A DNA stretch of 41,929 nucleotides. Source: a virus (taxonomy: Duplodnaviria > Caudoviricetes). The notes beneath the pieces are model-generated. The model was given only the letters and a program-made list of their open reading frames with translations, was not told where the DNA came from and did no database searches. Location of the stretch: IMG/VR virus record IMGVR_UViG_3300005326_000077, positions 1 to 41,929 of that record, one strand, 5' to 3'. Of this stretch, positions 1-41,929 are shown piece after piece; position 1 is the stretch's first letter; every line of letters starts with the position of its first letter. The position numbers and the translations under genes were made by a program.

Positions 1-158
1 CCCGCGGCACGTGCACGTAGGTTTAAAATGGCATTTACTTCGGGAATACCTGTGAAAGCTGCAATCCTGGATGCATTTGAGAAACCACCACCAAACGAAA
101 AAGTAGCACCACTTCCAATTATTTGAACAAATTGCTCATTAAATTCTTCAAGTATAGC
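1..158. repeat. Terminal direct repeat (copy of 41772-41929), indicating a circular or terminally redundant assembly
   Basis: cccgcggcacgtgcacg...ttcttcaagtatagc is identical at both ends except g42 vs a41813. Confidence 0.97.
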
Positions 159-5381: not shown

Positions 5382-5789
5382 ATGAAAAAAGTATTATTCA
5401 AGAAGTGGATTCCACGAAAAACCGAAAAGAAAACAGGTTTTAATTATGAAACAACTGTACCTGGTACTGGTTGTTATGAAAAAGATTTCACTCAAAAAGG
5501 TGAATTTCTTGCGTGGTGTATTGACTATATTGATGATGGAACTGGCGCATCATTTACAGTTGCATTAGTTATGATTGACGATGGAACAGTTGTAAAAGTT
5601 CTAGTTGAAAATATTAAGTTTATAATTGAAGAAAAAATTACTAATATATCTTCTAATACTATTAAGTACATTAGAAGCGAAAGAGTAATGTCAATAAACT
5701 TCCATTCATTTAAAACAGATGAAGAGGTTGTTGAGTATTTTGAGAATTTATTTGGAATTGGAAATGTACCTAAATGGTGGAGAGAATAA
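5382..5789 (+). CDS. Hypothetical protein
   Basis: 135-aa ORF in a tightly packed operon. Confidence 0.7.
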   Translation: MKKVLFKKWIPRKTEKKTGFNYETTVPGTGCYEKDFTQKGEFLAWCIDYIDDGTGASFTVALVMIDDGTVVKVLVENIKFIIEEKITNISSNTIKYIRSERVMSINFHSFKTDEEVVEYFENLFGIGNVPKWWRE

Positions 5790-5791
5790 TT

Positions 5792-6193
5792 ATGAAAAAA
5801 TGGGAATTAAAACTAGGTGACAAAGTTAGAGTTAAAAACTGGCTAAGTGATAATAGTAAGGCATCAGATGGTCTAATATTCTTAAAACAAATGAACTGTG
5901 AAAAAGAACTTACTGTTGAATCTATTTCAATTAATGGCAACCTTACAGTGTCTGAACAAAGACCATCATATTATTATTCACCTAAGTTTGTTAACAGGAG
6001 TTACAATCATGGTGACAAGTTTACAGTTCGCACTTACCTGCACGAGGGTGACCTTTGTGATGGTGGTTATTTCTTAAACGAAATGAGATCATCCGAACCA
6101 CTTGAATTAGTTAAATACAACAAAGCAAATAGCATGCTTATGTCTAATGACTTTTATTACACACCAGAAATGCTTATACAATGGAAAGAGTAG
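5792..6193 (+). CDS. Hypothetical protein with two tandem SH3/KOW-like repeats
   Basis: LGDKVRVKNWL...YYYSPKFV and HGDKFTVRTYL...FYYTPEML; start adjusted to MKKWELK. Confidence 0.7.
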   Translation: MKKWELKLGDKVRVKNWLSDNSKASDGLIFLKQMNCEKELTVESISINGNLTVSEQRPSYYYSPKFVNRSYNHGDKFTVRTYLHEGDLCDGGYFLNEMRSSEPLELVKYNKANSMLMSNDFYYTPEMLIQWKE

Positions 6194-6342
6194 AAGACTT
6201 TAAAGAGCTTGTTGTATTTGATGGCATTGACTATTATACAGCAAAAGAATGTAATGATGAAATTGGAGAAGAACTAATGTGTGTCTGCGATGACATTGAA
6301 AAAGCTGGTATTATTGCAAATGCACTAAACAGTATTAAATGA
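6181..6342 (+). CDS. Hypothetical acidic protein (53 aa)
   Basis: Manual translation MERVEDFKELVVFDG...AGIIANALNSIK. Confidence 0.6.
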   Translation: MERVEDFKELVVFDGIDYYTAKECNDEIGEELMCVCDDIEKAGIIANALNSIK

Positions 6343-6539
6343 CCTCAAAAAAACCGACGTCGAAAAAAGACGGTAAAATAAAAGACGAACTTTCACAGTT
6401 GTTTGTGAACCCTAATGGTGTATTGTGTTACACTGTTAAACTTTACGAAATAGATATTTATACAATGATTGGTGTACAGCCTTACTTATATACAAATGAA
6501 AGAGGTTGCATCAAAGGTTGGAGATATACACATATTTAA
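6339..6539 (+). CDS. Hypothetical protein
   Basis: 66-aa ORF with ATGA overlap to the previous ORF. Confidence 0.45.
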   Translation: MTSKKPTSKKDGKIKDELSQLFVNPNGVLCYTVKLYEIDIYTMIGVQPYLYTNERGCIKGWRYTHI

Positions 6540-6550
6540 AAATTAAAATC

Positions 6551-6910
6551 ATGAAAAAACAAGCTATTATTAATGCAATTAATGAGTATTGCGAACGCAG
6601 AAATGTTGAAGAGTTGACAATCGATGATATTATTGAGTACATGTCAATTAGCGGTACAAGTCTTAAATGGGAAATGTTACAATGTGTAGCAAACATATTT
6701 GCAAAAAATGAACAACGTGGACCACGTAGAGTGTTTACTGAAAATAATGAGTCAATACATGTTATCTCTGAAAATTTAGATGATGACATTGCAACACTAA
6801 GAAAAAATGCTGATTCATTAATAGATTCAACATATCCTGACCAAAACGTTATCTTTGAATACAGAGAAAATGGTTTTCTTATTATTATTGAATCACTAAT
6901 TGGATTATAA
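6551..6910 (+). CDS. Hypothetical protein
   Basis: ORF 6506..6910; probable start MKKQAII after aattaaaatc. Confidence 0.7.
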   Translation: MKKQAIINAINEYCERRNVEELTIDDIIEYMSISGTSLKWEMLQCVANIFAKNEQRGPRRVFTENNESIHVISENLDDDIATLRKNADSLIDSTYPDQNVIFEYRENGFLIIIESLIGL

Positions 6911-6911
6911 T

Positions 6912-7121
6912 ATGCACGAATACTATTTAATACAAAGTTTCTTAACATCAGAGTTTTGGAACGAAGAAAAACAAGAGTTTGACTCTTTGGCAAATGGAAC
7001 AAAATACTTTTCTCCACCAATAGAACAACTTAGTAAGAGAAAGTCAAACAATATACACTATCAGTTAACAAAAGCATCTGAAAAAAGAATATGCGTTATT
7101 GTTAAGATATACTGTAAATAA
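6912..7121 (+). CDS. Hypothetical protein
   Basis: ORF 6900..7121; probable start MHEYYLIQ. Confidence 0.6.
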   Translation: MHEYYLIQSFLTSEFWNEEKQEFDSLANGTKYFSPPIEQLSKRKSNNIHYQLTKASEKRICVIVKIYCK

Positions 7122-7122
7122 C

Positions 7123-7359
7123 ATGGCAAGAGACACTAGTAAAAACACAGAAAGACAGATTGGTGAAAAATTCATCGATATGTTCGACAATAAAGTTGTC
7201 GTAAAACAAGCAGAAATTGAAAACAGTTGTGTTGGTTGCATATATTTCTTTGGAAAAAGAGTTGAAAGAATGTGTCCAGGCAGACTTAATGAACTTGGGT
7301 ATTGTACTACACATATGCGATCTAAAAAGGACTCTATAATCTTTAAAATCCGCGACTAA
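7123..7359 (+). CDS. Small Cys-rich protein (same family as 5016..5207)
   Basis: RQIGEKF...CVGC...C...C...RSKKDSIIF. Confidence 0.7.
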   Translation: MARDTSKNTERQIGEKFIDMFDNKVVVKQAEIENSCVGCIYFFGKRVERMCPGRLNELGYCTTHMRSKKDSIIFKIRD

Positions 7360-7676
7360 TGCCAGGTGAAGTAAAAGTAAACACTAATTGGCACTTAAAC
7401 ACATCAATTGAGTTTACAGCCAATGGAATGTATGTACGAGTAAGTCTAAACATTGAGCCAGGACTTGCTAAATATCTCTCACCAAATAATGTAACACGTG
7501 GCAAACAAAGAACCGTTTATGCCCTGAGAAGTTTCATTGACTCAGATTTAGTATGCAAAGCAAACCTTGAAACTATACAAGGAATGTTATTACAAAACTG
7601 TATGAAAAACATTCGCATAGCAAAAGAAAAAAGAGAAAATGCAAACAAGAGAATTAATACTATCTCTAATAGATAA
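7359..7676 (+). CDS. Hypothetical protein
   Basis: 105-aa ORF with TAATG coupling. Confidence 0.6.
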   Translation: MPGEVKVNTNWHLNTSIEFTANGMYVRVSLNIEPGLAKYLSPNNVTRGKQRTVYALRSFIDSDLVCKANLETIQGMLLQNCMKNIRIAKEKRENANKRINTISNR

Positions 7677-8691
7677 GTATAAAGAAAACAAAGCATGTCT
7701 TGGTGGTTCAAGAAGTTTGATGTTGAGAGATATTAATCTTGGAAGAACACCAGTTGATATTGATATAATAGTAAATAAACAAGTTGATTTAAATACTATT
7801 GAAGAAGAAATTAATTCTTACAATGATAAAGTTATTTCTACAAGAATTAATGGCATAAAAGTTGACTTTCTTCTTGAAGAAGAAGATTATTCAATTGAGA
7901 CAATATGTGGTATACCATGTATAAATATTGAATCACTGCTTGCAGCTAAAAAAAGATATAATAGTGGTAAACACATTGAAGATATTAGAATTATTGAAAA
8001 TAACTTATTTAAAAATCAAAAAATGAAAGAATTAGAAGATTACACTGAAAAAGAGTGGTTAGAAATGTCACAATGTGATGTTGAAAACTTAATTAAGTTT
8101 ACGGCAATTAATAGGTGCATACCTATACCAGAAAAACCAGAGTTTATTCAAGAAGAGTATAATGTAGAAGTTAACAGATTTTTTAGATCTGATTTATTTC
8201 CAAATATGTACTTTAATAATGCAGAAACACTTGATTCAATTATTAACATTGTAAAAGATAATGACAATGTTAAGTTTGGCGAACAATACAGGTATTTCTA
8301 TCATAATGGAGTACAAGTAAATAAAATTTTAAACAAACCAAAAGAAGGTTTATTTAAAGTTGATTTTGTACATGGTGTTGATGAGAATGTATACGAGAAA
8401 ATTGAGGTTAGTCTCAAAGAAAAGAACAAAAGAGAAGAGTTGTACAAAACACAATTGGGAGAGTATAAACAAGCTTGTACAGAAATCAATGAAATTCGCG
8501 ATTTCATTAGTACACAAATTGAAAAAGCTCATTACAACGAATCACTTCGTATTAATTTCTCTTCAAAATTTGAGAAAGATTATATGCCATTAATAAGTGA
8601 CACTAAAAAAGCGTTAGAGTTATTTACAAAAACATATAAACTTGATCAGTTTGTAGTTGACTATATTGTTGAAAAATACAATATTCAATAA
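7639..8691 (+). CDS. Pol-beta-superfamily nucleotidyltransferase domain (aa 1-128) in frame with a second uncharacterised domain or gene starting at 8023
   Basis: CLGGSRSL...RTPVDIDIIV (GGS plus DxD), KVDFL, LLAAKKRY...KHIEDI; internal start context ttaaaaatcaaaaaATG at 8023. Confidence 0.65.
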   Translation: MQTRELILSLIDKYKENKACLGGSRSLMLRDINLGRTPVDIDIIVNKQVDLNTIEEEINSYNDKVISTRINGIKVDFLLEEEDYSIETICGIPCINIESLLAAKKRYNSGKHIEDIRIIENNLFKNQKMKELEDYTEKEWLEMSQCDVENLIKFTAINRCIPIPEKPEFIQEEYNVEVNRFFRSDLFPNMYFNNAETLDSIINIVKDNDNVKFGEQYRYFYHNGVQVNKILNKPKEGLFKVDFVHGVDENVYEKIEVSLKEKNKREELYKTQLGEYKQACTEINEIRDFISTQIEKAHYNESLRINFSSKFEKDYMPLISDTKKALELFTKTYKLDQFVVDYIVEKYNIQ

Positions 8692-8739
8692 ACGTGCTAA
8701 AAAACATACACATTTTATAAATTGTATTGTTTTTTTTAT

Positions 8740-8747
8740 TATATTTG
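8740..8747 (+). promoter_or_regulatory. Bacteroidota-type -7 box (TATATTTG)
   Basis: TAnnTTTG match in the intergenic gap before 8785. Confidence 0.55.
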
Positions 8748-8784
8748 TATATAATTAATTATTCACAATTTAAAAATCACAGTC

Positions 8785-9570
8785 ATGAGTAGCTTAGTAA
8801 AAGAAGACCTTGCAAAACTTAGTGTTAAACAACTTGAAAAGTACAAATCAGGTATGAATCCTGAAACAGATGCTGAAGACATCGCGGTTGTCAATGAAGT
8901 TATTGCTGAAAAGACAAACAGCATTGATAAAGTAAAAAACGACCCGTCAGTTGCCACTGAAATTGAAGGTGCAAAAGACAAGAAGGCTGAAATTGAAAAA
9001 CTTCGTGCAGAACGTGAAGAAGCAAAAGCCAAGGAAAAAGCTGAAAAAGAAGCCGCTGCCTTAAAACGCAAAGAAGAAAAAGAAAAAGAAAAAGCAGTGC
9101 GCGACGAAATTGCAGAACTTAAGGCTAAAGAAAAAGCTGAAAAAGAAGCCTTGAAGGCAGAAAAAGAAAAAGAAAAAGCTGGAAAAACTGCAGCCAGGTT
9201 AGCGAAACAAGAAGAACTCAAGGAAGCACGCAAAAAAGCTGCCGAAGAAATTGAACAACGTCGTATTGAACGCGCTGAAGCAGCTGAAAAACGTGCACAG
9301 GAAAACGCAGAACGTCTTGCGCAACTTGCGGCAAATCCAAAGCCAAACAAAACTCAAACTATCCGCCAATTACTAGCCAAGGGCTTCAGCAACCAACAGA
9401 TTGCAGAAGAGACTGGTTTTGCTCGTAAATTTGTTTGCGATACTGTTTGGAGAATTGAGCAAGAAATTAAAACCCAGGAATACATCCAAAAGAAACGCGA
9501 AGAGCAAGCAGCTTCATTAGCAGGCGATGTTTCTTCGGCAGAAGAAAATACAAACACAGTCGCCGAATAG
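8785..9570 (+). CDS. K/E/A-rich coiled-coil protein with C-terminal HTH-like domain
   Basis: AKEKAEKEA repeats; NKTQTIRQLLAKGFSNQQIAEETGFARKFVCDTVWRIEQ. Confidence 0.8.
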   Translation: MSSLVKEDLAKLSVKQLEKYKSGMNPETDAEDIAVVNEVIAEKTNSIDKVKNDPSVATEIEGAKDKKAEIEKLRAEREEAKAKEKAEKEAAALKRKEEKEKEKAVRDEIAELKAKEKAEKEALKAEKEKEKAGKTAARLAKQEELKEARKKAAEEIEQRRIERAEAAEKRAQENAERLAQLAANPKPNKTQTIRQLLAKGFSNQQIAEETGFARKFVCDTVWRIEQEIKTQEYIQKKREEQAASLAGDVSSAEENTNTVAE

Positions 9571-9605
9571 TGTTTGTGGTTAATAGTTTGATTTGATTTG
9601 AATTT

Positions 9606-9640
9606 AAGAGCAACCGTTTAAAATGGTTGCTCTTTTTTTT
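9606..9640 (+). terminator. Intrinsic terminator
   Basis: Stem aagagcaaccgttt/aaatggttgctctt followed by a T-run. Confidence 0.8.
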
Positions 9641-9719
9641 ACAATTGTGTTTTAAAACATTCAAATAAATTTTAATATTAAATAATTAATGGCTATCTTT
9701 ATGAAATAATAATAAGGAA

Positions 9720-10310
9720 ATGGAAGCAAGTAAATTGAAGTTATTACAGGATGGAAACAAATTAAGAAAAGAACTTAATTTAGTTGTAAGGTGGAGGGTG
9801 TTAACAAGCAATGGTGGAAAAGCTAGAATTGTTGCATACCAAGACGCAAGAGACTATCAGAAAGCTCTTGATTATGTTTGTGGACCTGACCATTGGGAAA
9901 ATGAACCAATGAATCTCAATGGAAAGATGTATATGCAGGTAAGAATTAAAATTGATGATAACTGGATTTCAAAAAGTGATGTTGGAACAGAAACATCAAT
10001 AGAGTCAGTAAAAGGTGAAGCATCTGATGCGTTTAAAAGAGCGTGTGTGGTATGGGGCTTGTTTAGAGATCTATATGACTATGATTATATAGTGTTAGAC
10101 TTCGACACAAGAGATAAGTGTCCGGTAACACCAGATGGAATAAAATTAAAAACACCAGATGCAATATCTACTTATTGTAATGGAATAAGTAAACCAATGG
10201 GTAGTTTAATAAATTTATACAAAACAATTGGTACTAACGTTGTTAATGAAAATGAGCAACTACTTAATGCTTTTGGTGTTATTAAGGAATACATTAAACA
10301 AAATCTATAG
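9720..10310 (+). CDS. Sak/Rad52-like single-strand annealing protein
   Basis: AYQDARD...LDYVCGPDHW, WISKSDVGTE...KGEASDAFKRACVVWG.FRDLY; adjacent to an exonuclease. Confidence 0.85.
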   Translation: MEASKLKLLQDGNKLRKELNLVVRWRVLTSNGGKARIVAYQDARDYQKALDYVCGPDHWENEPMNLNGKMYMQVRIKIDDNWISKSDVGTETSIESVKGEASDAFKRACVVWGLFRDLYDYDYIVLDFDTRDKCPVTPDGIKLKTPDAISTYCNGISKPMGSLINLYKTIGTNVVNENEQLLNAFGVIKEYIKQNL

Positions 10311-10312
10311 TT

Positions 10313-11095
10313 ATGTTTGAACAAGAAGAGGAAGACCTAAAAAAACAAATTGAATCATCAAATAAAAATGAAGAAATTATTGATGAATCAAAAGAAGTAA
10401 TCTTACAAGGTTCAAAGAACTGGTTTAAAATGCGACTTGGTTTATTAACTGGTTCAAAATGGCCAAGTATAATGACAAAAGGAAGAGGTTCTAAATATGG
10501 TGATACATTTTATAAAATGTTATACACGATATTTGTAGAGCGCGATTTGTCTGATGATGGTATTGATCTTTATGTTGAAGAAGAATATAACAAAGAGTTC
10601 AGACAAACAAGATGGGGAAACAAGTATGAACAATTTGCTCGTGAAGAGTATGAAAGAATAACTGGTGATATTGTTGATCTAACAACATTCAAAGTATCTA
10701 AAATACTCCCATGGATTGCAGGTTCATTTGATGGTGAGATTCCTTCAAAAAATAAAATAATTGAAATAAAGTGTCCATATGACCCAGTTGTTCACATTAA
10801 AAATTGCGAACTTGCTGAAAGTGGAATAACAGATAAGCATACATACTATCCACAGATTCAATGTAATATATTTGTATCTGGTGCTGATTCATGTGACTTT
10901 ATTTCATACGACCCACGTCGCAAGACAAATAAAATTGTAGTAATAAATGTACCAAAGGATGATGCATTTATAGAAAAAATGATCACCAGAGGCACTATTC
11001 TTGATTCAGCATGTGATTTGATGTTTAGTGACAATTTGACGGCTGAAGATGCGGTTATTCTAGCAGAAAAATATTACAAAGATGGAAAAATCTGA
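10313..11095 (+). CDS. YqaJ / lambda-exonuclease-like recombination nuclease
   Basis: QGSKNWFKMRLG.LTGS, WGNKYE, GSFDG, IIEIKCP, YYPQIQ, CDFISYDPR. Confidence 0.9.
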   Translation: MFEQEEEDLKKQIESSNKNEEIIDESKEVILQGSKNWFKMRLGLLTGSKWPSIMTKGRGSKYGDTFYKMLYTIFVERDLSDDGIDLYVEEEYNKEFRQTRWGNKYEQFAREEYERITGDIVDLTTFKVSKILPWIAGSFDGEIPSKNKIIEIKCPYDPVVHIKNCELAESGITDKHTYYPQIQCNIFVSGADSCDFISYDPRRKTNKIVVINVPKDDAFIEKMITRGTILDSACDLMFSDNLTAEDAVILAEKYYKDGKI

Positions 11096-11360
11096 TTACA
11101 TAGAATCAGCTGAACTATTTGGTCTAAAAACTAAAATACAAAGAGATGTGTTTGCATGTTTTTTAGAATTTCAAGTAGAGGTTGTTGGTAGTGACTTTAG
11201 TTTAGTGCATGAATTTCTATTACTTTTAAGTAACTCAAGAGAAATTCCAGATGACCCGCTTGATATATTTTATGGAATATGCTTAGTATTTCCAATGACA
11301 AAAATAAATATATTTAAACTAATAAGGCTATATTTAGACGAGTATGGTCAACTTGAATAA
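11082..11360 (+). CDS. Hypothetical protein
   Basis: 92-aa ORF in operon context. Confidence 0.55.
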   Translation: MEKSDYIESAELFGLKTKIQRDVFACFLEFQVEVVGSDFSLVHEFLLLLSNSREIPDDPLDIFYGICLVFPMTKINIFKLIRLYLDEYGQLE

Positions 11361-11385
11361 TAATTAATAATTAAAAATCATTAAA

Positions 11386-11769
11386 ATGGAACGTGCAAAG
11401 ATCAATTTGGCAGCATTGCCATCACACAAAATCGTAAAAGTAAAAGTAGGCGGAGAAGAAGTTGAAGCAATTCTTATCCCAATCGCAAAAAACAATTTAT
11501 TCCTTAGTGATAAGGGAAACGTATTCATGGACCTTGTTTTGTTCGAAAATAAAGAGCCATTAAAAGATAAGGATGGTTTGATCATTCAAACACACATGAT
11601 TAAACAGTCTTTACCAAAAGACATGCGCGAAAAACAAACAAAAGAAGAAAAGATGAATCAACCAATTATTGGTTCAGCTTGCATTATTGGTAGTTTTGTT
11701 CGTGACGAAAAACCAGCAGTACAAGACGACGACGTCTCAACACCGGAAGAGGATGATCTTCCATTCTAA
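11386..11769 (+). CDS. Putative single-stranded DNA-binding protein
   Basis: Acidic C-terminal tail ending EEDDLPF; located in the recombination module. Confidence 0.65.
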   Translation: MERAKINLAALPSHKIVKVKVGGEEVEAILIPIAKNNLFLSDKGNVFMDLVLFENKEPLKDKDGLIIQTHMIKQSLPKDMREKQTKEEKMNQPIIGSACIIGSFVRDEKPAVQDDDVSTPEEDDLPF

Positions 11770-11921: not shown

Positions 11922-13595
11922 ATGTTGAAGTTATATGATTATCAAAATCAACTTAGATATAAGACTAAGTTGGCAATGATAAATGGTAATAAAAGAATAT
12001 TAATACAGTCACCAACAGGAAGTGGTAAAACTGTTACATTTTCAATGGACGTTTTTGAATCTGGCTCTAAAGGTTACAAATGCCTAATATTAACAGACAG
12101 AATAGAATTATTAAATGGAACAGATGGAACACTTGGAAAATTTAACATTGAGGCAACCACAATAACAAGCGGCGCAAAATACCCACCAAATAGTTACCAT
12201 CATTGCATAGCAATGTCACAGACTTTACGTAGAAGACTAAATTCTGATATATGGTTGAAATTTATTAGATCATTTAAATTAGTAATAATAGATGAAGCAC
12301 ATATACAAGAATTTAATATATACTTTGAGAAAGAAGTATTTACGAAAGATCAATATATATTCGGATATACAGCTACACCGATTAGATCAAAAAAGCAAAG
12401 ACAATTATCAGAGGACTATTCTGTATTAATAGAAGGTCCGCAAGTTCAAGAACTTATAAATTCAGGTCATCTTGTTAAAGACATGTATTATGCTCCAAAA
12501 CACTTTGACCCAACTGGTATATCATTAAATACATTTGGTGAGTATAATGAATATGAAATGTTTAAAAAGTTTGAAGAAGTAATATCATATGATAGTATAA
12601 TTAATAATTGGAAAACAATATGTAATGATACAATATCTATAGTATTCTGTTCAAACACAGAACATGTTTTAAATACATGTAAGGCATTTAATGATAATGG
12701 AATAAAAGCAAAATTTATAGTATCACCACTTAGTAAGCCAAAGTATGATGATGAAATGACAGATGAGCAATTTGTTTCTTATAAAGAAAAATTAATACTA
12801 TATGAGAAATATATTGATTATATGTCTAAGTATTCTGGAAATAGAGATGATGTAATTGAAGATTGGAAATCTGAAAAATTTAAAGTACTTGTAAACACAA
12901 ATATATACACTAAAGGTTTTGATCATAAACCAATAGAAACTGTTATTGTACTTAGAGCAACAACATCAGAGGCACTATGGTTGCAAATGCTTGGAAGAGG
13001 TAGTAGAACGTTTGAAAATAAAACACACTTTAATGTTCTTGATTTTGGTAGTAATGGCGAACGTCTTGGTATGTATGCTCAAGAACGTAAGTTTTATCTT
13101 AATCATGATCAAAGAGATTCAAATGGCGTAACACCAGTTAAAGAGTGTGGACTAATAAAAGGAATTAAAAAAGTAGACAAGAATAATAATGCAGGATGTG
13201 GATGTCTAATACTTTCATCACGCAAGATCTGTAACTACTGTGGTTATATATTTGAGCAAGAAAAAGTTGAAATTGATATAGATTTAGTGCATATAAACTA
13301 TAATTTTGATGATACTAAGTCTGATTTAAAATACAACGACTACGAATTTGGTAAATTAGAAAGAAAAGCAGAAGAACGTGGGTATAAGTTTAGTTGGGTA
13401 ATAAACCAGGTTATAGCACTTGGTGGCATTGATGCTTTGACAGCATTCAGAGATTATAAAAATTATAAGACAAGTTGGATATTCTCAATAGAAAAATCAT
13501 ATGCTGAATCAATAAAGAGGTATAATGAAAAAAACAAAGAAAAAGTGCTTGAGTTGCCAGAGGAAATTGAAATCCAAGGGAAACTATTGTTCTAA
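11922..13595 (+). CDS. Superfamily 2 DEAH helicase with C-terminal Zn finger
   Basis: SPTGSGKT, IIDEAH, YTATP, TKGFD, QMLGRGSR, KEC...GCG...CNYCG. Confidence 0.92.
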   Translation: MLKLYDYQNQLRYKTKLAMINGNKRILIQSPTGSGKTVTFSMDVFESGSKGYKCLILTDRIELLNGTDGTLGKFNIEATTITSGAKYPPNSYHHCIAMSQTLRRRLNSDIWLKFIRSFKLVIIDEAHIQEFNIYFEKEVFTKDQYIFGYTATPIRSKKQRQLSEDYSVLIEGPQVQELINSGHLVKDMYYAPKHFDPTGISLNTFGEYNEYEMFKKFEEVISYDSIINNWKTICNDTISIVFCSNTEHVLNTCKAFNDNGIKAKFIVSPLSKPKYDDEMTDEQFVSYKEKLILYEKYIDYMSKYSGNRDDVIEDWKSEKFKVLVNTNIYTKGFDHKPIETVIVLRATTSEALWLQMLGRGSRTFENKTHFNVLDFGSNGERLGMYAQERKFYLNHDQRDSNGVTPVKECGLIKGIKKVDKNNNAGCGCLILSSRKICNYCGYIFEQEKVEIDIDLVHINYNFDDTKSDLKYNDYEFGKLERKAEERGYKFSWVINQVIALGGIDALTAFRDYKNYKTSWIFSIEKSYAESIKRYNEKNKEKVLELPEEIEIQGKLLF

Positions 13596-13959
13596 ATGTC
13601 AAAGATTAAAAAACCCATATAAATATGCATACCAAACACTTAAAGATAATGCAAAAAGAAGAGGTAAAGAATTTTCACTTACGTTTGAACAATTCTGTGA
13701 ATTTGCTATACAAACAGATTACATTGCTCGCAAAGGAATCAGAAAAAACAGCATTCATATTGACAGAAAAAATGAGAAACTTGGTTATACAATAGATAAT
13801 ATTCAACCACTTACAAATTCAGAAAATGTAAGAAAGTATCTTAAGTATTACTGGGATGAATATAATAAGAAAATGAACTTTGAATTTAAAACTTATAAAG
13901 ATGGAGAAAAAAAAGAATGTTCTGGAGAAAGTGACGGATATAATGATTCACCGTTCTGA
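13525..13959 (+). CDS. HNH-type endonuclease with N-terminal Zn knuckle
   Basis: CLSC...CSKC; NAKRRGKEFSLT; HIDRKNEKLGYTIDNIQPLTNSENVRK. Confidence 0.8.
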   Translation: MKKTKKKCLSCQRKLKSKGNYCSKCQRLKNPYKYAYQTLKDNAKRRGKEFSLTFEQFCEFAIQTDYIARKGIRKNSIHIDRKNEKLGYTIDNIQPLTNSENVRKYLKYYWDEYNKKMNFEFKTYKDGEKKECSGESDGYNDSPF

Positions 13960-14221
13960 GGAAAAAGATAGGGAGTATGGTCCATTTGATGAATCACTTG
14001 AAAGAGCAGCTATAATTGCTACTCAATTAACTGGTATTGAAATAACAACAGAAGTATTCATGAAATGTATGATTGCTTTGAAACTTAGCAGAATGCGTTA
14101 CAACATGAAGGAAGATACCATAATGGACGGTATTGCATACATATATGGTGCATATGAATACTCTGTTAAATTAAAAGAAGAAGTTGAAAACTTACCATTC
14201 CTATCTAAAGACAATGAATAA
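13901..14221 (+). CDS. DUF6378-like small alpha-helical protein (nucleotide-metabolism associated)
   Basis: RSEEKDREYGPF...MIALKLSR...KEDTIMDGIAY pattern; start adjusted to MEKKKNVLE. Confidence 0.65.
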   Translation: MEKKKNVLEKVTDIMIHRSEEKDREYGPFDESLERAAIIATQLTGIEITTEVFMKCMIALKLSRMRYNMKEDTIMDGIAYIYGAYEYSVKLKEEVENLPFLSKDNE

Positions 14222-15005
14222 CTTATTTGAAAGAAGATACAAAGAGTTGATATTTGATATATTAACCAATGGAACTGAAGAAGAAGTTCGTGATGGAAAT
14301 AAGGCTATAACAATGTTTGGCAAGAGTCTTGAGTTTCAGTGTGTATTGAATGTTTTTCCTCTATTAACATCAAAGGAAATGTTCTTTAAGAATGTTAAAT
14401 TTGAATTAAAATGGTTATTAGATGGTCTTACAAATGTACACTATTTGAAATCAAATGGTGTATCAATATGGGATAAGTGGGCTGATGAATCCGGAGATAT
14501 TGGTGATACATATGGAAGACAACTACGTAGTTTCAATGGAATTGATCAACTAAAAACTATAATAAAAGAATTAGTTGAATTTAAAAGAAGTAGACAATTA
14601 GTTATTTCATTATGGAATCCAGTTGCAATATCTCAAGGTAATAGAAGACCATGTTATCCGATGTTTCAATTTCAATATTCTGGTGGAAGATTAAATATAG
14701 CAATAACACAAAGAAGTGCAGATGTTTTTGTTGGTCTTCCATATGATATTGCATTTTTTACATTAATGTTAAGATTAGTATGTGCATATATTGACGAAGC
14801 ACCTGGAAAGGTATTAATAAACATAGCTGATGCGCATATTTACGTAGAACACATTGAAGCATGTAAAAGATACTTAACCAATGAAACGTTTGATTTACCA
14901 AATTTAAGGTTAAATGGACAAGATATATTTAACTTTGAACCAAAGAATGTTTGGTTAACGGACTATCAACACTGTGAGTTTATTAAGGCAAAAATAATCA
15001 TTTAA
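14214..15005 (+). CDS. Thymidylate synthase-family enzyme with dCMP-type active site (candidate dCMP methylase or hydroxymethylase)
   Basis: ThyA motifs FELKWLL, IWDKWAD, YGRQLR, DQL, WNP, PC, QRSAD, DAHIY are present; PCY replaces PCH and GLPYDIA replaces GLPFNIA. Confidence 0.88.
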   Translation: MNNLFERRYKELIFDILTNGTEEEVRDGNKAITMFGKSLEFQCVLNVFPLLTSKEMFFKNVKFELKWLLDGLTNVHYLKSNGVSIWDKWADESGDIGDTYGRQLRSFNGIDQLKTIIKELVEFKRSRQLVISLWNPVAISQGNRRPCYPMFQFQYSGGRLNIAITQRSADVFVGLPYDIAFFTLMLRLVCAYIDEAPGKVLINIADAHIYVEHIEACKRYLTNETFDLPNLRLNGQDIFNFEPKNVWLTDYQHCEFIKAKIII

Positions 15006-15016
15006 ACTAAACAACT

Positions 15017-15472
15017 ATGAAAATTACAAAAGTTAGAGATGTAAAAACACCATCAAGAGGTACATCTGGTTCTGCTGGAATTGATTTCTTTATTCCAAAT
15101 GATATAATAACAAGTAATACAAACAACAAAATTTTTATTGCTCCAGGTGAAAGTATTTTGATTCCATCTGGAATTATAGCAAATATACCACATGGTTATA
15201 TGCTAACAGCTTTTAATAAAAGTGGTATTGCTTCAAAGAAAAAATTACTAGTAGGTGCTCAAGTTTGTGATGAAGATTATCAAGGTGAAATACACATAAA
15301 TCTTCACAATGTTGGTAGTAGTTATGTTACAGTTGAACCTGGTGAAAAAATAGTTCAATTTATACTTGTACCAGTTTTATATGAAGATATTGTTGAAGTT
15401 GCTGTTAATGAACTTTTTGATTCAACAACAGAAAGAGGTGCTGGTGGGTTTGGACATACTGGAAATAAATAA
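15017..15472 (+). CDS. dut: Trimeric dUTPase-family pyrophosphatase (divergent motifs)
   Basis: SAGIDF, NKSGIA, VCDEDYQGEI, GEKIVQ, RGAGGFGHTG. Confidence 0.85.
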   Translation: MKITKVRDVKTPSRGTSGSAGIDFFIPNDIITSNTNNKIFIAPGESILIPSGIIANIPHGYMLTAFNKSGIASKKKLLVGAQVCDEDYQGEIHINLHNVGSSYVTVEPGEKIVQFILVPVLYEDIVEVAVNELFDSTTERGAGGFGHTGNK

Positions 15473-15474
15473 AC

Positions 15475-17892
15475 ATGGAATACAAAATAACTGTATTTAA
15501 AAGCATGACTTCTGATATACCATTTTATTATGATGTATCAGAGGTTTTGTTAAGTATTAAAAGAGGTAAGAATAAAGACTTAATAAGTAAAATACGCTCT
15601 GAGTCTGATAAAGAAAAAAGAGATAGACTTAAAAAGAATTTATTCTATATATGCTTTTCTGGTGAGTTTAGAAAGAGACTAAATGAAGAACTTGTAGAAC
15701 ATTCAGGTTTGATATGCCTTGATTTTGATAACTTTCCAAATAAGAAAACACTTGACACTTGGTTAAATAAAATAAAATCAAACATACATTGTTTTGCTGC
15801 ATTTATTTCTCCATCTGGTATGGGTATTAAAGTATTGTTTAAAATACCAAAGTGTAAAACAAATGATGAGCATAACCTAAGATTTGACGCTATTCACAAA
15901 TACTTTTCTAATTGCGAATACTTTGACAAAAATGGAAAAGGAATGAATAGAGTTTGTTATGAAAGTTACGACCCAAATGTATATGTAAATAAGGATTCTG
16001 AAATTTTTACTGATATATGCACAAACGTAGTTGACAAAAATGATAGATTATCATCAATTAAAGCAACAGTTGATTCTGATGCTTATACTGTATTTAATAA
16101 ATTAATAACGTGGTTTGAAAATAAATATAATCTTAGAAAGGGTTCTAGAAATGAAAACCTTTTTTATCTTGCTTCAGCATGTAGAGACTATTCTATAGAT
16201 GAAAATATTGCAACAGTTTTAATATATAACTACGCATCAAATAAAGCAGATGACTTTTCATCAATATCATCAGAAATACCAATAATAATAAAGTCTGCTT
16301 ATAACAAAGTTTCTGCTGGAAAAAAGATGATAGTTATACCAACAGAAGCTATTGCTAGTGATGAAGATAAAGAAATTGATCTATTATCATTTAATGTTGA
16401 TTTTGATGAAGTTGTTGTTGAAAATATTATTGAAGACACTAAAATTGAAGATGTTAAAGATGAATCAGATGAAAATAAAATTCCAGCATTTTGTGAATTT
16501 TGGAAATGGTCTGGTACTTCAAATAAAATAGATTTCCTTAAACTAAAGAAATTCCTACAAGATAATGGTTTTTATAGATATGAGTTAAATGAAAAGAACT
16601 TTATATTTATAAGAGTTATTGATAACTCAATTCAAGAAGTTGATGTTAGACATATAAAAGATTTCATGTTAAGATGTCTTGAAAGTTGGGATAAGACTGA
16701 TATATATAACATGATTGCTGAAAATACTAAACTTAAAAAGGAATATCTTAACTATCTAGACCCACTTAAAATAATATGGAATAAAGATACAAAAGATATA
16801 TGTTGGTTGTACTTTAATAATACTGCGGTTAAAATAACATCTGAAAGTATAGAACTTGTTCCATATATTGAACTTGATGGATATATTTGGAAAAATCAAA
16901 GAATAAAAAGAAACTTTAAAACATTAAGTGAATCTAAGTCTAATCAAAATGATTTTGCAAGATTTGTTTCAAATGTATGTGCATCGAGTGAAAAAAGAAT
17001 AAATAGTTTTAGGTCTGCAATTGGTTATTTAATGAATAGGCACAAAAGTAAGTCAACTGCTAAAGCTGTAATATTTAACGACGAAATAATAGCAGACGAA
17101 GCAATGGGTGGCACTGGGAAAGGCTTAACAATGCAGATAATAGGAACGGTTAGAAATGTTGTTTTAATACCAGGCGCTGACTTTGATACTGGAAAAGATT
17201 TCGCATGGCAACGAATTGGATTTGATACTGATATAGTTCTAATAGATGATATAGAGAAAAACTTTAAGTATAAAAAACTATTTACATTTATAACCGATGG
17301 GTGGCCAATAAGAAAACTTTATCAAGATGAAATATTCTTACCACCAGAAGATTCTCCCAAGGTTGTTATAACAACAAATTACTCGTTGAAGGGTGATACA
17401 GATAGTTACGAAAGAAGAAAATTCGAATTAGAATTGCATGCTCATTATAGTAAGAAATATCAACCAATAGATGATTTTGGTAAAGAGTTCATAACCGAAT
17501 GGAATGCAGAAGAAAAAAATCTTTGTGATAACTATCTTGCATACTGCGCTAAATACTTTCTAAAAGAAGGTTTAGTTTCTCCAAGTTATATTAATTTGGA
17601 ATACAAAAAGCTAATTGTTAATACCTCGATAGACTTCGCATCATTTGCTGAAACATATCTAAAAGACAACTTAAGATATGTAAAAAAAGACATATACGCA
17701 TTTTATAAGAATGAAAACGGGCTCGGCCCGTATGACTTTCCAAATCAGAAAATATTTACTGACTGGATGGTATATTGGGGTAAATATAAAAATATGAATA
17801 CTATAAGCAGATCTGGGGCTGGTGGTTCTGTTTTTGTATATGGACAAGGTTTAAAAGAATGGAAAAATCCTAAAAACGAAATTGATTTCTAA
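15475..17892 (+). CDS. Primase-helicase (BT4734/VirE-N primase, PriCT and SF3-like helicase)
   Basis: CFSGEF...HSGLICLDFD, ISPSGMGIK, GSRNENLFYLA, GGTGKG, VLIDD, ITTNY. Confidence 0.88.
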   Translation: MEYKITVFKSMTSDIPFYYDVSEVLLSIKRGKNKDLISKIRSESDKEKRDRLKKNLFYICFSGEFRKRLNEELVEHSGLICLDFDNFPNKKTLDTWLNKIKSNIHCFAAFISPSGMGIKVLFKIPKCKTNDEHNLRFDAIHKYFSNCEYFDKNGKGMNRVCYESYDPNVYVNKDSEIFTDICTNVVDKNDRLSSIKATVDSDAYTVFNKLITWFENKYNLRKGSRNENLFYLASACRDYSIDENIATVLIYNYASNKADDFSSISSEIPIIIKSAYNKVSAGKKMIVIPTEAIASDEDKEIDLLSFNVDFDEVVVENIIEDTKIEDVKDESDENKIPAFCEFWKWSGTSNKIDFLKLKKFLQDNGFYRYELNEKNFIFIRVIDNSIQEVDVRHIKDFMLRCLESWDKTDIYNMIAENTKLKKEYLNYLDPLKIIWNKDTKDICWLYFNNTAVKITSESIELVPYIELDGYIWKNQRIKRNFKTLSESKSNQNDFARFVSNVCASSEKRINSFRSAIGYLMNRHKSKSTAKAVIFNDEIIADEAMGGTGKGLTMQIIGTVRNVVLIPGADFDTGKDFAWQRIGFDTDIVLIDDIEKNFKYKKLFTFITDGWPIRKLYQDEIFLPPEDSPKVVITTNYSLKGDTDSYERRKFELELHAHYSKKYQPIDDFGKEFITEWNAEEKNLCDNYLAYCAKYFLKEGLVSPSYINLEYKKLIVNTSIDFASFAETYLKDNLRYVKKDIYAFYKNENGLGPYDFPNQKIFTDWMVYWGKYKNMNTISRSGAGGSVFVYGQGLKEWKNPKNEIDF

Positions 17893-40735: not shown

Positions 40736-41929
40736 CTCAAGTTTATACTGATCGATTGTGATTGCATTATCTTCGAGTGCTTTCGTAAGTGCGTTTACTG
40801 TTAACATCAAACTTTGTGCTCTTTCTTTACGTTCTGTCTCGAAAATTGGCAGGTGATCGAATTTTGGTACCAAACGATAGCCTTTCCTCTCATAAGTAGC
40901 AAATTTCTTATTAATACCAGCGATTCTACGGTTTGCTTCAGGTATAATCGTATCGCGATACCACTGTCTTTGGGCCTCTTTTTTGTTGTCAAAAGTAGTA
41001 TTTCTTATTGAAGAAAGTAGTTCATATGGTGTTCCATAGGCGTCACAAATCTTCAAAGTATCTTCACGTGTCTCTTCAAATAGCTTTAATTTGTCAACAT
41101 CAATAGCCATTTGTTGCCAATTTAGAGCTAAATTAGTAATGATAACTTGCCATTGTGACTTAGTTAAGCCATATTTCTTGAACTCTTCTTGCACCTTTTC
41201 CTTTTCAGCCTTGTTCATTGGTGCGACGCCGCCGATTCCGTCACGTGCTGCATTTGATAAGATACCAATAGCACCACGATTAACAATAAGAACGTTTCTT
41301 GCCTCGTATGCAGCTTTTATGTTCTCAATTGCTGGTTTTAATGCATCAAGTTTAGAATTTCCACGATAAAAATTCTCTTTACTTGTAAAAGTGACGTTAT
41401 TGTCGTTTAAGTGCATTAAATTGTCAATATTCAGCAGTTTTCGATCGCCACCGAAGTCCTGGTAGGTATAAACAAGTTCTTTTGGGAAGGATGTCAATAA
41501 ATAAAATGGCATATTAGATGGCTGCACTCCTGCTCTCTGTTCTATATTAACAGCATGTGGTGGCAGTGTGAACAATCCACTAGGTTGTTTCATTCCAAGT
41601 GGCTTAGGTGCATACATAAATTCGTCGCCGAAAATATCGCGGAAAAGTGTAGTTTGGCCGAAAAGTTCTTCTTTTGTTTGGAAATAGTTTGGTTCTTCAA
41701 TCAAATCAATCAAGTAGTCATCTACTTCCATCTCATGCCCAGCCTTATCAACCGCTACTATTCTAATGTTACCCGCGGCACGTGCACGTAGGTTTAAAAT
41801 GGCATTTACTTCAGGAATACCTGTGAAAGCTGCAATCCTGGATGCATTTGAGAAACCACCACCAAACGAAAAAGTAGCACCACTTCCAATTATTTGAACA
41901 AATTGCTCATTAAATTCTTCAAGTATAGC
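40715..41929 (-). CDS. Portal protein (HK97-like), 3' part; start at 269 across the join
   Basis: LIEEPNYFQT, IFGDEF, LFTLPP, RGNSKLDALK, NRGAIGILS, ICDAYGTPYELL...TFDNKKEA. Confidence 0.92.
   Translation of the reverse strand, partial: AILEEFNEQFVQIIGSGATFSFGGGFSNASRIAAFTGIPEVNAILNLRARAAGNIRIVAVDKAGHEMEVDDYLIDLIEEPNYFQTKEELFGQTTLFRDIFGDEFMYAPKPLGMKQPSGLFTLPPHAVNIEQRAGVQPSNMPFYLLTSFPKELVYTYQDFGGDRKLLNIDNLMHLNDNNVTFTSKENFYRGNSKLDALKPAIENIKAAYEARNVLIVNRGAIGILSNAARDGIGGVAPMNKAEKEKVQEEFKKYGLTKSQWQVIITNLALNWQQMAIDVDKLKLFEETREDTLKICDAYGTPYELLSSIRNTTFDNKKEAQRQWYRDTIIPEANRRIAGINKKFATYERKGYRLVPKFDHLPIFETERKERAQSLMLTVNALTKALEDNAITIDQYKLELKKFGI
41772..41929. repeat. Terminal direct repeat (copy of 1-158)
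   Basis: 157 of 158 positions identical to the window start. Confidence 0.97.

What the first reader, a model, noticed from the sequence alone, without database searches (positions are those of the whole stretch)
13901..15472. Candidate nucleotide-level cytosine-modification pathway: ThyA homolog with dCMP-type active site in a phage lacking its own polymerase
Seen: the ThyA-like protein keeps the catalytic Cys (codon 14652) and the RSAD, Glu58-, Trp80- and Tyr94-equivalent motifs. However, it has Asp (GAT, 14745; GLPYDIA) exactly 31 residues after the Cys, where E. coli ThyA has Asn177, and Tyr in place of His147 (PCY). Established: Asn177 (L. casei Asn229) dictates dUMP specificity, Asn->Asp mutants methylate dCMP, T4 dCMP hydroxymethylase has Asp at this site, and changing the His after the Cys further favours dCMP in engineered enzymes. 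The gene sits between a DUF6378-like gene and a divergent dUTPase. Inference: the trio makes 5-methyl- (or hydroxymethyl-) dCMP and biases dNTP pools so that host kinases and host polymerase insert modified C, giving sequence-independent anti-restriction. No phage DNA polymerase, kinase, glycosyltransferase or DNA methyltransferase was recognised, so this would be an unusually minimal system.
Basis: partly seen in the sequence, partly recalled or inferred. Interest (0 to 1): 0.85.

Follow-up and report, generated by a model that had tools for sequence, protein, structure and literature searches.

The report
Three-gene phage methylcytosine swap kit
A small complete phage genome with no recognisable DNA polymerase or nucleotide kinase carries a three-gene block that likely swaps cytosine for 5-methylcytosine before DNA is made, a known anti-restriction trick, here with a remodelled dUTPase-fold enzyme predicted to destroy dCTP and a small unknown protein that may stand in for the missing kinase.

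Summary
Observation confirmed. The ThyA homologue (14214-15005) has Cys-Tyr and Asp at the Asn177 position. All 35 nearest homologues agree, and other samples show only silent changes there, so it is no error. Asp169 is kept and position 143 is not acidic, which by published rules points to 5-methyl-dCMP, as in Xanthomonas phage Xp12. The complete 41.9-kb genome has no recognisable polymerase, kinase or deaminase.

New here: the 'dUTPase' belongs to a subfamily (NKSG motif, invariant His in the base-binding hairpin). It has an Asp177 TS within 10 kb in 67 of 77 viral loci, against 0 of 80 for ordinary dUTPases. It fills the slot MazG holds in sister cassettes, never alongside it, so it is likely a trimeric-fold dCTPase. 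DUF6378 is in 64 of those 77 loci, fuses to all three partner types, and never co-occurred with a P-loop dNMP kinase (0 of 35 versus 5 of 22), so it may supply the missing kinase step.

No activity was measured. Site-avoidance evidence is weak and one sister phage contradicts it. The scan found the MazG version before on other DNA (four unreviewed notes). Verdict: new variant of a known system.

The parts
13901..14221 (+). DUF6378 protein, 106 aa (TTG at 13880 is an alternative start). All-helical, with conserved R/E/E/K/R/Y/G and K/R/K/D/D/Y clusters. Dedicated partner of Asp177 TS enzymes; candidate for the missing phosphorylation step or a second nucleotide hydrolase
   Evidence: Pfam; model pLDDT 85, four helices; conservation over 150 representatives; fusions to NKSG dUTPase, MazG/PRA-PH and an Asp177 TS; co-occurrence
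14214..15005 (+). ThyA-fold enzyme, 263 aa (TTG at 14184 alternative), predicted dCMP 5-methyltransferase; start overlaps the DUF6378 stop by 8 nt
14643..14657 (+). Active-site loop R-R-P-C-Y: Arg at the E. coli Leu143 position (not Asp/Glu), catalytic Cys at 14652, Tyr for His147
   Evidence: sequence; Ile/Leu/Met in 30, Arg in 4 and Lys in 1 of the 35 nearest homologues
14721..14747 (+). Asp169 equivalent kept (GAT 14721) and Asp at the Asn177 position (GAT 14745)
15017..15472 (+). Trimeric dUTPase-fold pyrophosphatase of the 'NKSG' subfamily, predicted dCTPase. Catalytic Asp85, Tyr88, Ser69, Gln114 and Arg140 kept; Arg>Lys in motif 2, motif-3 Gly lost, invariant His93 (CAC at 15293) at the E. 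coli Met98 position
15475..17892 (+). Context: 805-aa BT4734-like/PriCT primase-helicase, the only large replication protein besides the helicase; not a recognised replicative polymerase
   Evidence: no PDB sequence match
11922..13959 (+). Context: SF2 helicase (11922-13595) and HNH/endo VII-like gene (13525-13959) directly upstream in the same run of genes
   Evidence: the same order in L006 and L088

Best explanation
The three genes likely form a pre-replicative cytosine-replacement kit: the ThyA homologue is predicted to methylate dCMP to 5-methyl-dCMP, the remodelled dUTPase-fold enzyme is predicted to hydrolyse dCTP, and the host polymerase would then copy 5-methylcytosine into phage DNA, likely shielding it from most restriction enzymes. 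The dCTPase would both remove the competing canonical nucleotide and feed dCMP to the methylase; host ThyA would still make dTMP and host DHFR would recycle folate. The step from 5-methyl-dCMP to the triphosphate has no recognisable phage kinase; I favour DUF6378 taking part in it, with host kinases as the alternative. Shown here: the residues, their conservation, the gene order, the co-occurrence counts and the absence of profile hits. Inferred: every activity, the degree of substitution and the anti-restriction role.
For: (1) Asp177 with Cys and Asp169 kept in 35 of 35 nearest homologues. Positions 177 and 147 were the top two discriminators of modified-C contigs in MetaGPA (PMC8670742, section read). 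Xp12's enzyme shares FVGLPYD with this one, and Xp12's plus 5 of 7 other Asp177 enzymes put 5mdC into E. coli plasmid DNA when co-expressed with T4 gp1 (bioRxiv 2024.12.05.627091 passages), so a host replicase can do the incorporation. (2) Published product rules: acidic 143 goes with hydroxymethyl, D169N with hydroxy (PMC13326640 passages and one section); neither is present. The tree puts the enzyme in a ThyA-like Asp clade far from the Asp143 hydroxymethylases (quick tree). (3) A MazG or NKSG-type dUTPase lies beside 31 of 32 Asp177 loci (27 MazG, 4 NKSG, never both) and 0 of 52 Asn177 loci. (4) NKSG dUTPases: 68 of 77 further IMG/VR loci hold a TS homologue, 67 with Asp177 and 1 truncated; 62 of those enzymes are the Asp143 hydroxymethylase type. 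Control: 0 of 80 ordinary dUTPase loci hold an Asp177 TS, and the 4 dUTPases beside Asn177 enzymes are all RSG type. The link spans 29 clusters at 70% identity, 24 with a TS. Isolated Bacteroides phage BF503P1 has the same dUTPase type between two Asp177 TS genes, next to a kinase-like and a carbamoyltransferase-like gene. (5) His93 in 67 of 68 NKSG versus 0 of 74 ordinary sequences, with catalytic residues intact. (6) CCGG, GCGC, CGCG and ACGT are not depleted in the window (O/E 1.21, 1.08, 0.99, 1.19); enzymes for these sites are blocked on fully methylated Xp12 DNA (PMC7653180 Table S3).
Against: No enzyme or virion of this lineage has been assayed; the nearest tested enzyme (Xp12) is only 25% identical, and 2 of 7 Asp177 enzymes gave no 5mdC in the published test. 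This protein has Arg at 143, unlike most of its clade. No kinase is recognisable, and the published reconstitutions added one. The window still avoids CATG (0.65), CTAG (0.55) and AGCT (0.80), whose tested enzymes are blocked by 5mC. One Asp177+MazG+DUF6378 phage (G025) strongly avoids CCGG, CGCG and GGCC. Strong avoidance of GC-rich four-base sites was 2 of 12 Asp177 genomes versus 10 of 20 low-GC Asn177 loci, not significant (p 0.075). Croceibacter phage P2559Y has a 53%-identical dUTPase of this type and no TS hit in the 17.8 kb fetched, as do 8-9 of the 77 loci. Co-occurrence counts include related phages, so they are not independent events.
Confidence: 0.7

Rival explanations
1. dTMP bypass: the enzyme makes 5-methyl-dCMP, but a host dCMP deaminase turns it into dTMP, so the cassette only boosts dTTP supply for a 68% A+T genome and little 5mC reaches DNA.
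For: No phage kinase found. Deamination of 5-methyl-dC nucleotides to thymidine nucleotides is the published reading for Xp12-type deaminases. A deaminase-family profile hits Bacteroides thetaiotaomicron among the control genomes. G025 avoids sites that 5mC should protect.
Against: The same DUF6378 and NKSG partners flank Asp143 hydroxymethylase-type enzymes in most of the 77 loci, and their product cannot become dTMP. A canonical ThyA would do the job more simply. The phage has no deaminase of its own.
Confidence: 0.1
2. It is still a dUMP-using thymidylate synthase with a tolerated Asn-to-Asp change, beside an ordinary dUTPase.
For: About 40% identity to canonical ThyA, much closer than to any tested dCMP enzyme. 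dUTPase plus TS is the textbook dTMP pair. The dUTPase model matches canonical dUTPases best.
Against: Asp177 co-varies fully with Tyr147 in 120 hits. Partner genes track Asp177 and not Asn177 (31/32 vs 0/52; 67/77 vs 0/80). The dUTPase's base-binding hairpin is remodelled. Asn177Asp switches specificity in engineered enzymes (cited in PMC8670742).
Confidence: 0.08
3. The product is another C5 derivative (hydroxymethyl-dCMP or something new), because Arg at position 143 opens the site differently from Leu/Ile.
For: Arg143 in this protein and 4 of 35 homologues; the same partner genes serve hydroxymethylase-type enzymes; the position-143 rule is described as a correlation only.
Against: 30 of 35 clade members have Ile/Leu/Met and none has Asp/Glu; Asp169 is kept; no transferase is encoded to use a hydroxyl handle; Xp12, a proven methylase, also has a polar residue (Asn) there.
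Confidence: 0.08

Closest known systems
Xanthomonas phage Xp12 / Pseudomonas phage PaMx74 5-methyl-dCMP pathway (Xp12 MT664984: TS homologue QNN97214, PRA-PH pyrophosphatase, dCMP-family deaminase, DHFR, PolA)
   Same: Asp177 ThyA-fold enzyme with the FVGLPYD motif and Asp169 kept, next to a nucleotide pyrophosphatase; no kinase hit in Xp12 either with the two profiles run on it.
   Different: Only 25% identity and a separate branch; Tyr rather than Pro after the Cys. No PolA, deaminase or DHFR here. The pyrophosphatase is a trimeric beta-fold dUTPase homologue, not an all-alpha PRA-PH. DUF6378 stands as its own gene.
MetaGPA metavirome cassettes: Asp177 TS + PRA-PH + dCMP deaminase (PMC8670742; bioRxiv 2024.12.05.627091)
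   Same: The same diagnostic positions (147, 177) and a pyrophosphatase neighbour; host-replicase incorporation shown in E. coli.
   Different: Those neighbourhoods list PolA and deaminases; 'dUTPase' and 'dCTPase' do not occur in the bioRxiv main text and 'dUTPase' does not occur in the eLife main text.
T4 hydroxymethylcytosine pathway (gp42 dCMP hydroxymethylase, gp1 kinase, gp56 dCTPase/dUTPase; gp56 fold recalled as all-alpha)
   Same: Logic of synthase plus dCTP removal; Asp at the 177 position.
   Different: No acidic residue at 143, and no kinase, own polymerase or glucosyltransferase; a different pyrophosphatase fold.
Canonical trimeric dUTPases (E. coli Dut 1dud, T5 dUTPase 8qky)
   Same: Fold and catalytic Asp, Tyr, Ser, Gln, Arg.
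   Different: PRSG>NKSG, motif-3 Gly lost, invariant His at the Met98 position, motif-1 Asp>Ser; tied to Asp177 TS genes.

Membership tests
dCMP 5-methyltransferase (Xp12 type) | ThyA fold with catalytic Cys and Asp at E. coli 177 | tested here: met
dCMP 5-methyltransferase (Xp12 type) | No acidic residue at 143; Asp169 kept | tested here: met
   Arg143, Asp169; clade Ile/Leu/Met 30 of 35; rules from PMC13326640
dCMP 5-methyltransferase (Xp12 type) | Makes 5-methyl-dCMP; 5mC replaces C in virion DNA | not testable with these tools
   needs an enzyme assay or DNA analysis
Xp12/Pamexvirus cassette as a whole | In-cis deaminase, PRA-PH pyrophosphatase, DHFR and own PolA | tested here: not met
   none of these found in the complete record
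T4-type dCMP hydroxymethylase | Asp/Glu at position 143 | tested here: not met
   Arg; and a separate branch in the quick tree
5-hydroxy-dCMP synthase (RB69/DLP3 type) | D169N | tested here: not met
   RSAD kept, GAT at 14721
Canonical thymidylate synthase ThyA | His147 and Asn177 | tested here: not met
   Tyr and Asp
Trimeric dUTPase | Fold and catalytic residues of the five motifs | tested here: met
Trimeric dUTPase | Specificity for dUTP over dCTP | not testable with these tools
   the hairpin residues differ from canonical enzymes; needs an assay
MazG-like all-alpha NTP pyrophosphatase (for DUF6378) | MazG helical fold | tested here: inconclusive
   no Foldseek match at E<=0.001; best VIA Z 6.5; PDB 2p06 (AF_0060; MazG-like by my recall) at Z 5.6, rmsd 3.5, 79 aligned
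P-loop dNMP kinase (for DUF6378) | P-loop alpha/beta fold | tested here: not met
   all-helical model, no Walker A motif; any kinase role would need another mechanism

The most novel reading that the evidence does not exclude
DUF6378 is a new, non-P-loop enzyme that phosphorylates C5-modified dCMP, and the NKSG protein is a dCTPase built on the trimeric dUTPase fold. The 1.6-kb trio would then be a self-sufficient, portable kit that makes a host replisome write 5-methylcytosine DNA, and a distant DUF6378-like domain fused to Xp12's pyrophosphatase could be the phage-induced 5-methyl-dCMP kinase reported in 1982.
Probability: 0.2. Interest if true: 0.85.

Novelty: new variant of a known kind. 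Interest (0 to 1): 0.58.

Why it matters
If right, base replacement is not limited to phages that carry their own polymerase: 30-90 kb phages (this one probably of Bacteroidota) can borrow the host replisome with three small genes. It would re-annotate a large phage 'dUTPase' subfamily as dCTPases, giving a marker for modified-cytosine genomes of several chemistries. It would also give DUF6378 a testable role in a step whose gene I found named in no paper. A three-gene kit for context-free 5mC DNA would be a useful laboratory tool. The core chemistry itself is established.

Tried and rejected
Metagenome scan with the clade alignment: its 80 best loci matched at only 35-39% identity, like canonical ThyA; not analysed further.

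First control scan with a single ordinary dUTPase returned only its own contig; repeated with an alignment.

DUF6378 fold: no match by sequence profile to PDB, Foldseek (68) or VIA-align above background (80). The Atlas gave only DUF6378 clusters (51) and nothing once these were skipped (117). This shows neither a new fold nor absence of kinship.

Homology of Xp12's C-terminal helical domain to DUF6378 is not established: hhalign probability 0.4%, and 2 of 200 shuffles outscored it. 'Family 6' versus DUF6378 is only suggestive: hhalign E 0.003; 6 of 11 members beat all 200 shuffles, which were made from the Xp12 domain. I first took 'family 4' for DUF6378; it is unrelated.

Restriction-site avoidance was inconclusive (p 0.075). 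The cassette-less relative G034 avoids GATC, CTAG and GGCC far more (0.08, 0.05, 0.51) than the window (0.54, 0.55, 0.72), but it is a single distant control.

The careful tree did not finish; only the quick tree is used, and Xp12's place is on a long, open branch.

No RNA holder listed. No isolated phage has a TS above about 41% identity to this enzyme or to a sister Tyr/Asp enzyme. No complex prediction was run.

Literature: DUF6378 appears in 3 papers, listing only. Searches for a trimeric-fold dCTPase, N177D phage enzymes (133) and a 5-methyl-dCMP kinase (65, 96, 102) gave no paper on these points among the listings. The library lacks most subscription papers.
Full report
1. Observation. 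The finding's coordinates hold three tightly packed genes on the + strand: DUF6378 (13901-14221), a ThyA homologue (14214-15005) and a dUTPase homologue (15017-15472), between an SF2 helicase/endonuclease pair and an 805-aa primase-helicase. The Cys codon is at 14652, Tyr follows, and GAT at 14745 lies 31 codons later; solved ThyA chains have His and Asn there. The codon is real. A second assembly gives the same protein, 35 of the 35 nearest proteins share Tyr and Asp, and among the 120 listed hits the two changes never separate (39 Y/D, 81 H/N). Four other runs show only silent changes at the Cys and Asp codons.

2. The genome. The window is a 100%-complete virus record with repeated ends. 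Its capsid is closest to a Leeuwenhoekiella phage (39%), with Flavobacterium phages among the next hits, so the host is probably Bacteroidota (inference). No PolA, PolB, DnaE, dCMP deaminase or dNMP-kinase profile matches. Every ORF above 400 aa is a helicase, primase-helicase or a gene of the virion module, and no MTase, glycosyltransferase or integrase was found among 50 ORFs scanned (50 of the 99 listed frames, chosen as the non-overlapping set). Caveat: the BT4734-like primase domain could have some polymerase activity; it has no PDB match.

3. What the TS homologue makes. Position 177 sets the base: positions 177 and 147 were the two top discriminators between modified-C and unmodified viral contigs (PMC8670742, section 11 read). 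Xp12's enzyme and 5 of 7 metavirome Asp177 enzymes put 5mdC into E. coli plasmid DNA when co-expressed with T4 gp1 kinase (bioRxiv 2024.12.05.627091, passages; its supplements were closed). Acidic 143 correlates with hydroxymethylation and D169N marks hydroxylases (PMC13326640, passages and section 28). Here 143 is Arg (Ile/Leu/Met in 30 of 35 homologues, never acidic) and Asp169 is kept. Xp12's enzyme shares the FVGLPYD motif but only 25% identity. A quick tree of 105 rows (near-duplicate loci left out) separates the ThyA-like Tyr/Asp enzymes from canonical Asn177 ThyA (support 97, with two Asp rows on the Asn side) and from the Asp143 hydroxymethylases; Xp12 is on a long open branch. Best reading: a dCMP methylase, inferred.

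4. The cassette across phages. Of 84 IMG/VR TS loci (the window's own copy dropped), 32 have Asp177 and 52 Asn177. A MazG gene (27) or an NKSG-type dUTPase (4) lies beside 31 of 32 Asp loci, never both, and beside 0 of 52 Asn loci. DUF6378 (13) or a small 'family 6' gene (14) is in 27 of 32, against 1 of 52. Of 8 other Asp177 records at least 90% complete, 7 have no PolA, PolB or DnaE hit; the exception, G014, has DnaE, a kinase and DHFR and lacks both partners. Pfam scans of 278 representative ORFs of 110-1300 aa from 13 records found no other replicative polymerase or dNMP kinase (479 family representatives were available and 6 families crossing stretch borders were not scanned). The minimal layout is therefore a lineage trait. 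Four unreviewed notes of this scan describe the MazG version on other DNA.

5. The dUTPase homologue is the new element. It keeps the fold and catalytic residues but belongs to a subfamily with NKSG for PRSG (Lys 66/68 vs Arg 73/74), loss of the motif-3 Gly (74/74 in ordinary enzymes) and an invariant His (67/68 vs 0/74) at the E. coli Met98 position; that this hairpin reads the base is recalled, not tested. A scan with this subfamily gave 80 loci; 3 already known were dropped. Of 77, 68 hold a TS homologue within the fetched flank: 67 with Asp177 and one truncated; two loci also carry a second, canonical ThyA; 62 of the Asp enzymes are the Asp143 hydroxymethylase type. A second count with a broader profile and pattern matching gave 64 Asp177, 5 unread and 8 without TS. 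The control scan, seeded with ordinary dUTPases from Asn177 loci, gave 0 of 80 with Asp177 (1 Asn, 1 unread, 78 none). The 77 loci reduce to 29 clusters at 70% identity, 24 with a TS. Because the subfamily accompanies several unrelated cytosine-type TS lineages and alternates with MazG in one gene slot, I infer that it removes dCTP. Against: P2559Y and 8-9 loci show no TS nearby. My searches listed no paper on a trimeric-fold dCTPase (listings only).

6. DUF6378 and the kinase gap. DUF6378 is in 64 of 77 NKSG loci and 0 of 80 controls. Among 47 longer relatives scanned (of 150 listed), it is fused to NKSG dUTPases (2), MazG/PRA-PH (3) and an Asp143/Asp177 TS (1). Its conserved residues are basic and acidic clusters on a four-helix model with no structural match. 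In 57 records, a phage dNMP-kinase profile hit 5, all among the 22 without a Pfam DUF6378 hit, and 0 of 35 with one (Fisher p 0.006). Caveats: four of the five hits built the profile, most records are fragments, kin are not independent, and G051 (DUF6378-positive) has a weak 21-residue P-loop hit. Two complete hydroxymethylase-type genomes with a Pfam DUF6378 hit (G040, G057) and G051 show no kinase by PF02223, PF21448 or the profile. It stays a lead: DUF6378 could equally be a second hydrolase or a scaffold, with host kinases doing the work.

7. Genome footprint. With the Xp12 digest table (PMC7653180 supplement) as guide, the window does not avoid CCGG, GCGC, CGCG or ACGT and does avoid GATC (0.54) and AATT (0.82), which are cut on fully methylated DNA, and GAATTC (1 vs 10 expected), which Xp12 lacks so it was not tested. 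It also avoids CATG, CTAG and AGCT, which should be protected, and sister phage G025 avoids CCGG, CGCG and GGCC strongly. The group comparison is not significant (2 of 12 vs 10 of 20, p 0.075). This neither supports nor refutes full substitution.

8. Mechanism. dCTP to dCMP by the NKSG enzyme (inferred from co-occurrence and residues); dCMP to 5-methyl-dCMP by the TS homologue (inferred from residues, with tested relatives); phosphorylation by DUF6378 or host kinases (open); incorporation by the host replicase (shown in E. coli for related enzymes; 5-methyl-dCTP is a good polymerase substrate in vitro, PMC9594043 passages); protection from most Type II enzymes (shown for Xp12 DNA, 196 of 218). 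Confidence 0.7. Rivals: dTMP bypass 0.1, ordinary TS 0.08, another C5 product 0.08.

9. Verdict. It works like the Xp12 5-methyl-dCMP pathway but is not a member of that cassette, since its own polymerase, deaminase, DHFR and PRA-PH are all absent. The chemistry is known; the polymerase-free three-gene form with a trimeric-fold dCTPase candidate and a possible non-P-loop kinase was not found in print by my searches. New variant of a known kind; interest 0.58.

Noticed in passing
window 7639-8691 (+): 350-aa ORF whose N-terminal ~125 aa has a GGS...DxD nucleotidyltransferase-like motif (PHROG 1614, E 0.002), followed by a region with no family hit.
   Followed up: partly
window 14199-15010, run X3 record 11: A relative nearly identical upstream carries a diverged TS (about 80% identity over 14364-14749), and 1252 other letters stand in place of 14749-15010: a gene exchange or a ~1-kb insertion at the TS 3' end.
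   Followed up: no
L086:8208-8981 (-), Xp12: The PRA-PH pyrophosphatase has an extra C-terminal helical domain; PRA-PH+DUF6378 fusions of similar length exist (P0346, P0378), but homology of the C-terminal parts is not significant.
   Followed up: partly
L212 (Bacteroides phage BF503P1, OP172670) 5493-11522: An isolated, culturable phage with carbamoyltransferase-like, P-loop kinase-like, two Asp143/Asp177 TS and NKSG dUTPase genes: a ready test case for the dCTPase prediction.
   Followed up: partly
G025 / L042: Complete 35-kb phage with the DUF6378-TS(Asp)-MazG cassette that still strongly avoids CCGG, CGCG, GGCC and GATC; recent gain, partial modification or a non-modifying role.
   Followed up: partly
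L009, L014, L019 and others, gene after TS: In many sister cassettes (60-90 kb phage group) MazG is fused to a ~170-aa N-terminal region, with a weak T5orf172 hit in one member (L030); a small 'family 6' gene (14 loci) follows in place of DUF6378.
   Followed up: partly
L276, L279, L289: A further Asp177 TS type (RVPC...RSCDYVRHFRDD, Arg at 143) beside an NKSG dUTPase, with relatives in cultured Gordonia, Streptomyces and Mycobacterium phages; product unknown.
   Followed up: partly
L089 / G034: A distant relative (33% primase identity) lacks the cassette at this place and has a D12 adenine methyltransferase and its own beta-clamp there instead.
   Followed up: partly
P0270: DUF6378 fused to a UDG-superfamily domain.
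   Followed up: no
window 1-150 and 41780-41929: The two ends share a near-identical repeat of about 130 bases, consistent with a circular or terminally redundant complete genome.
   Followed up: partly
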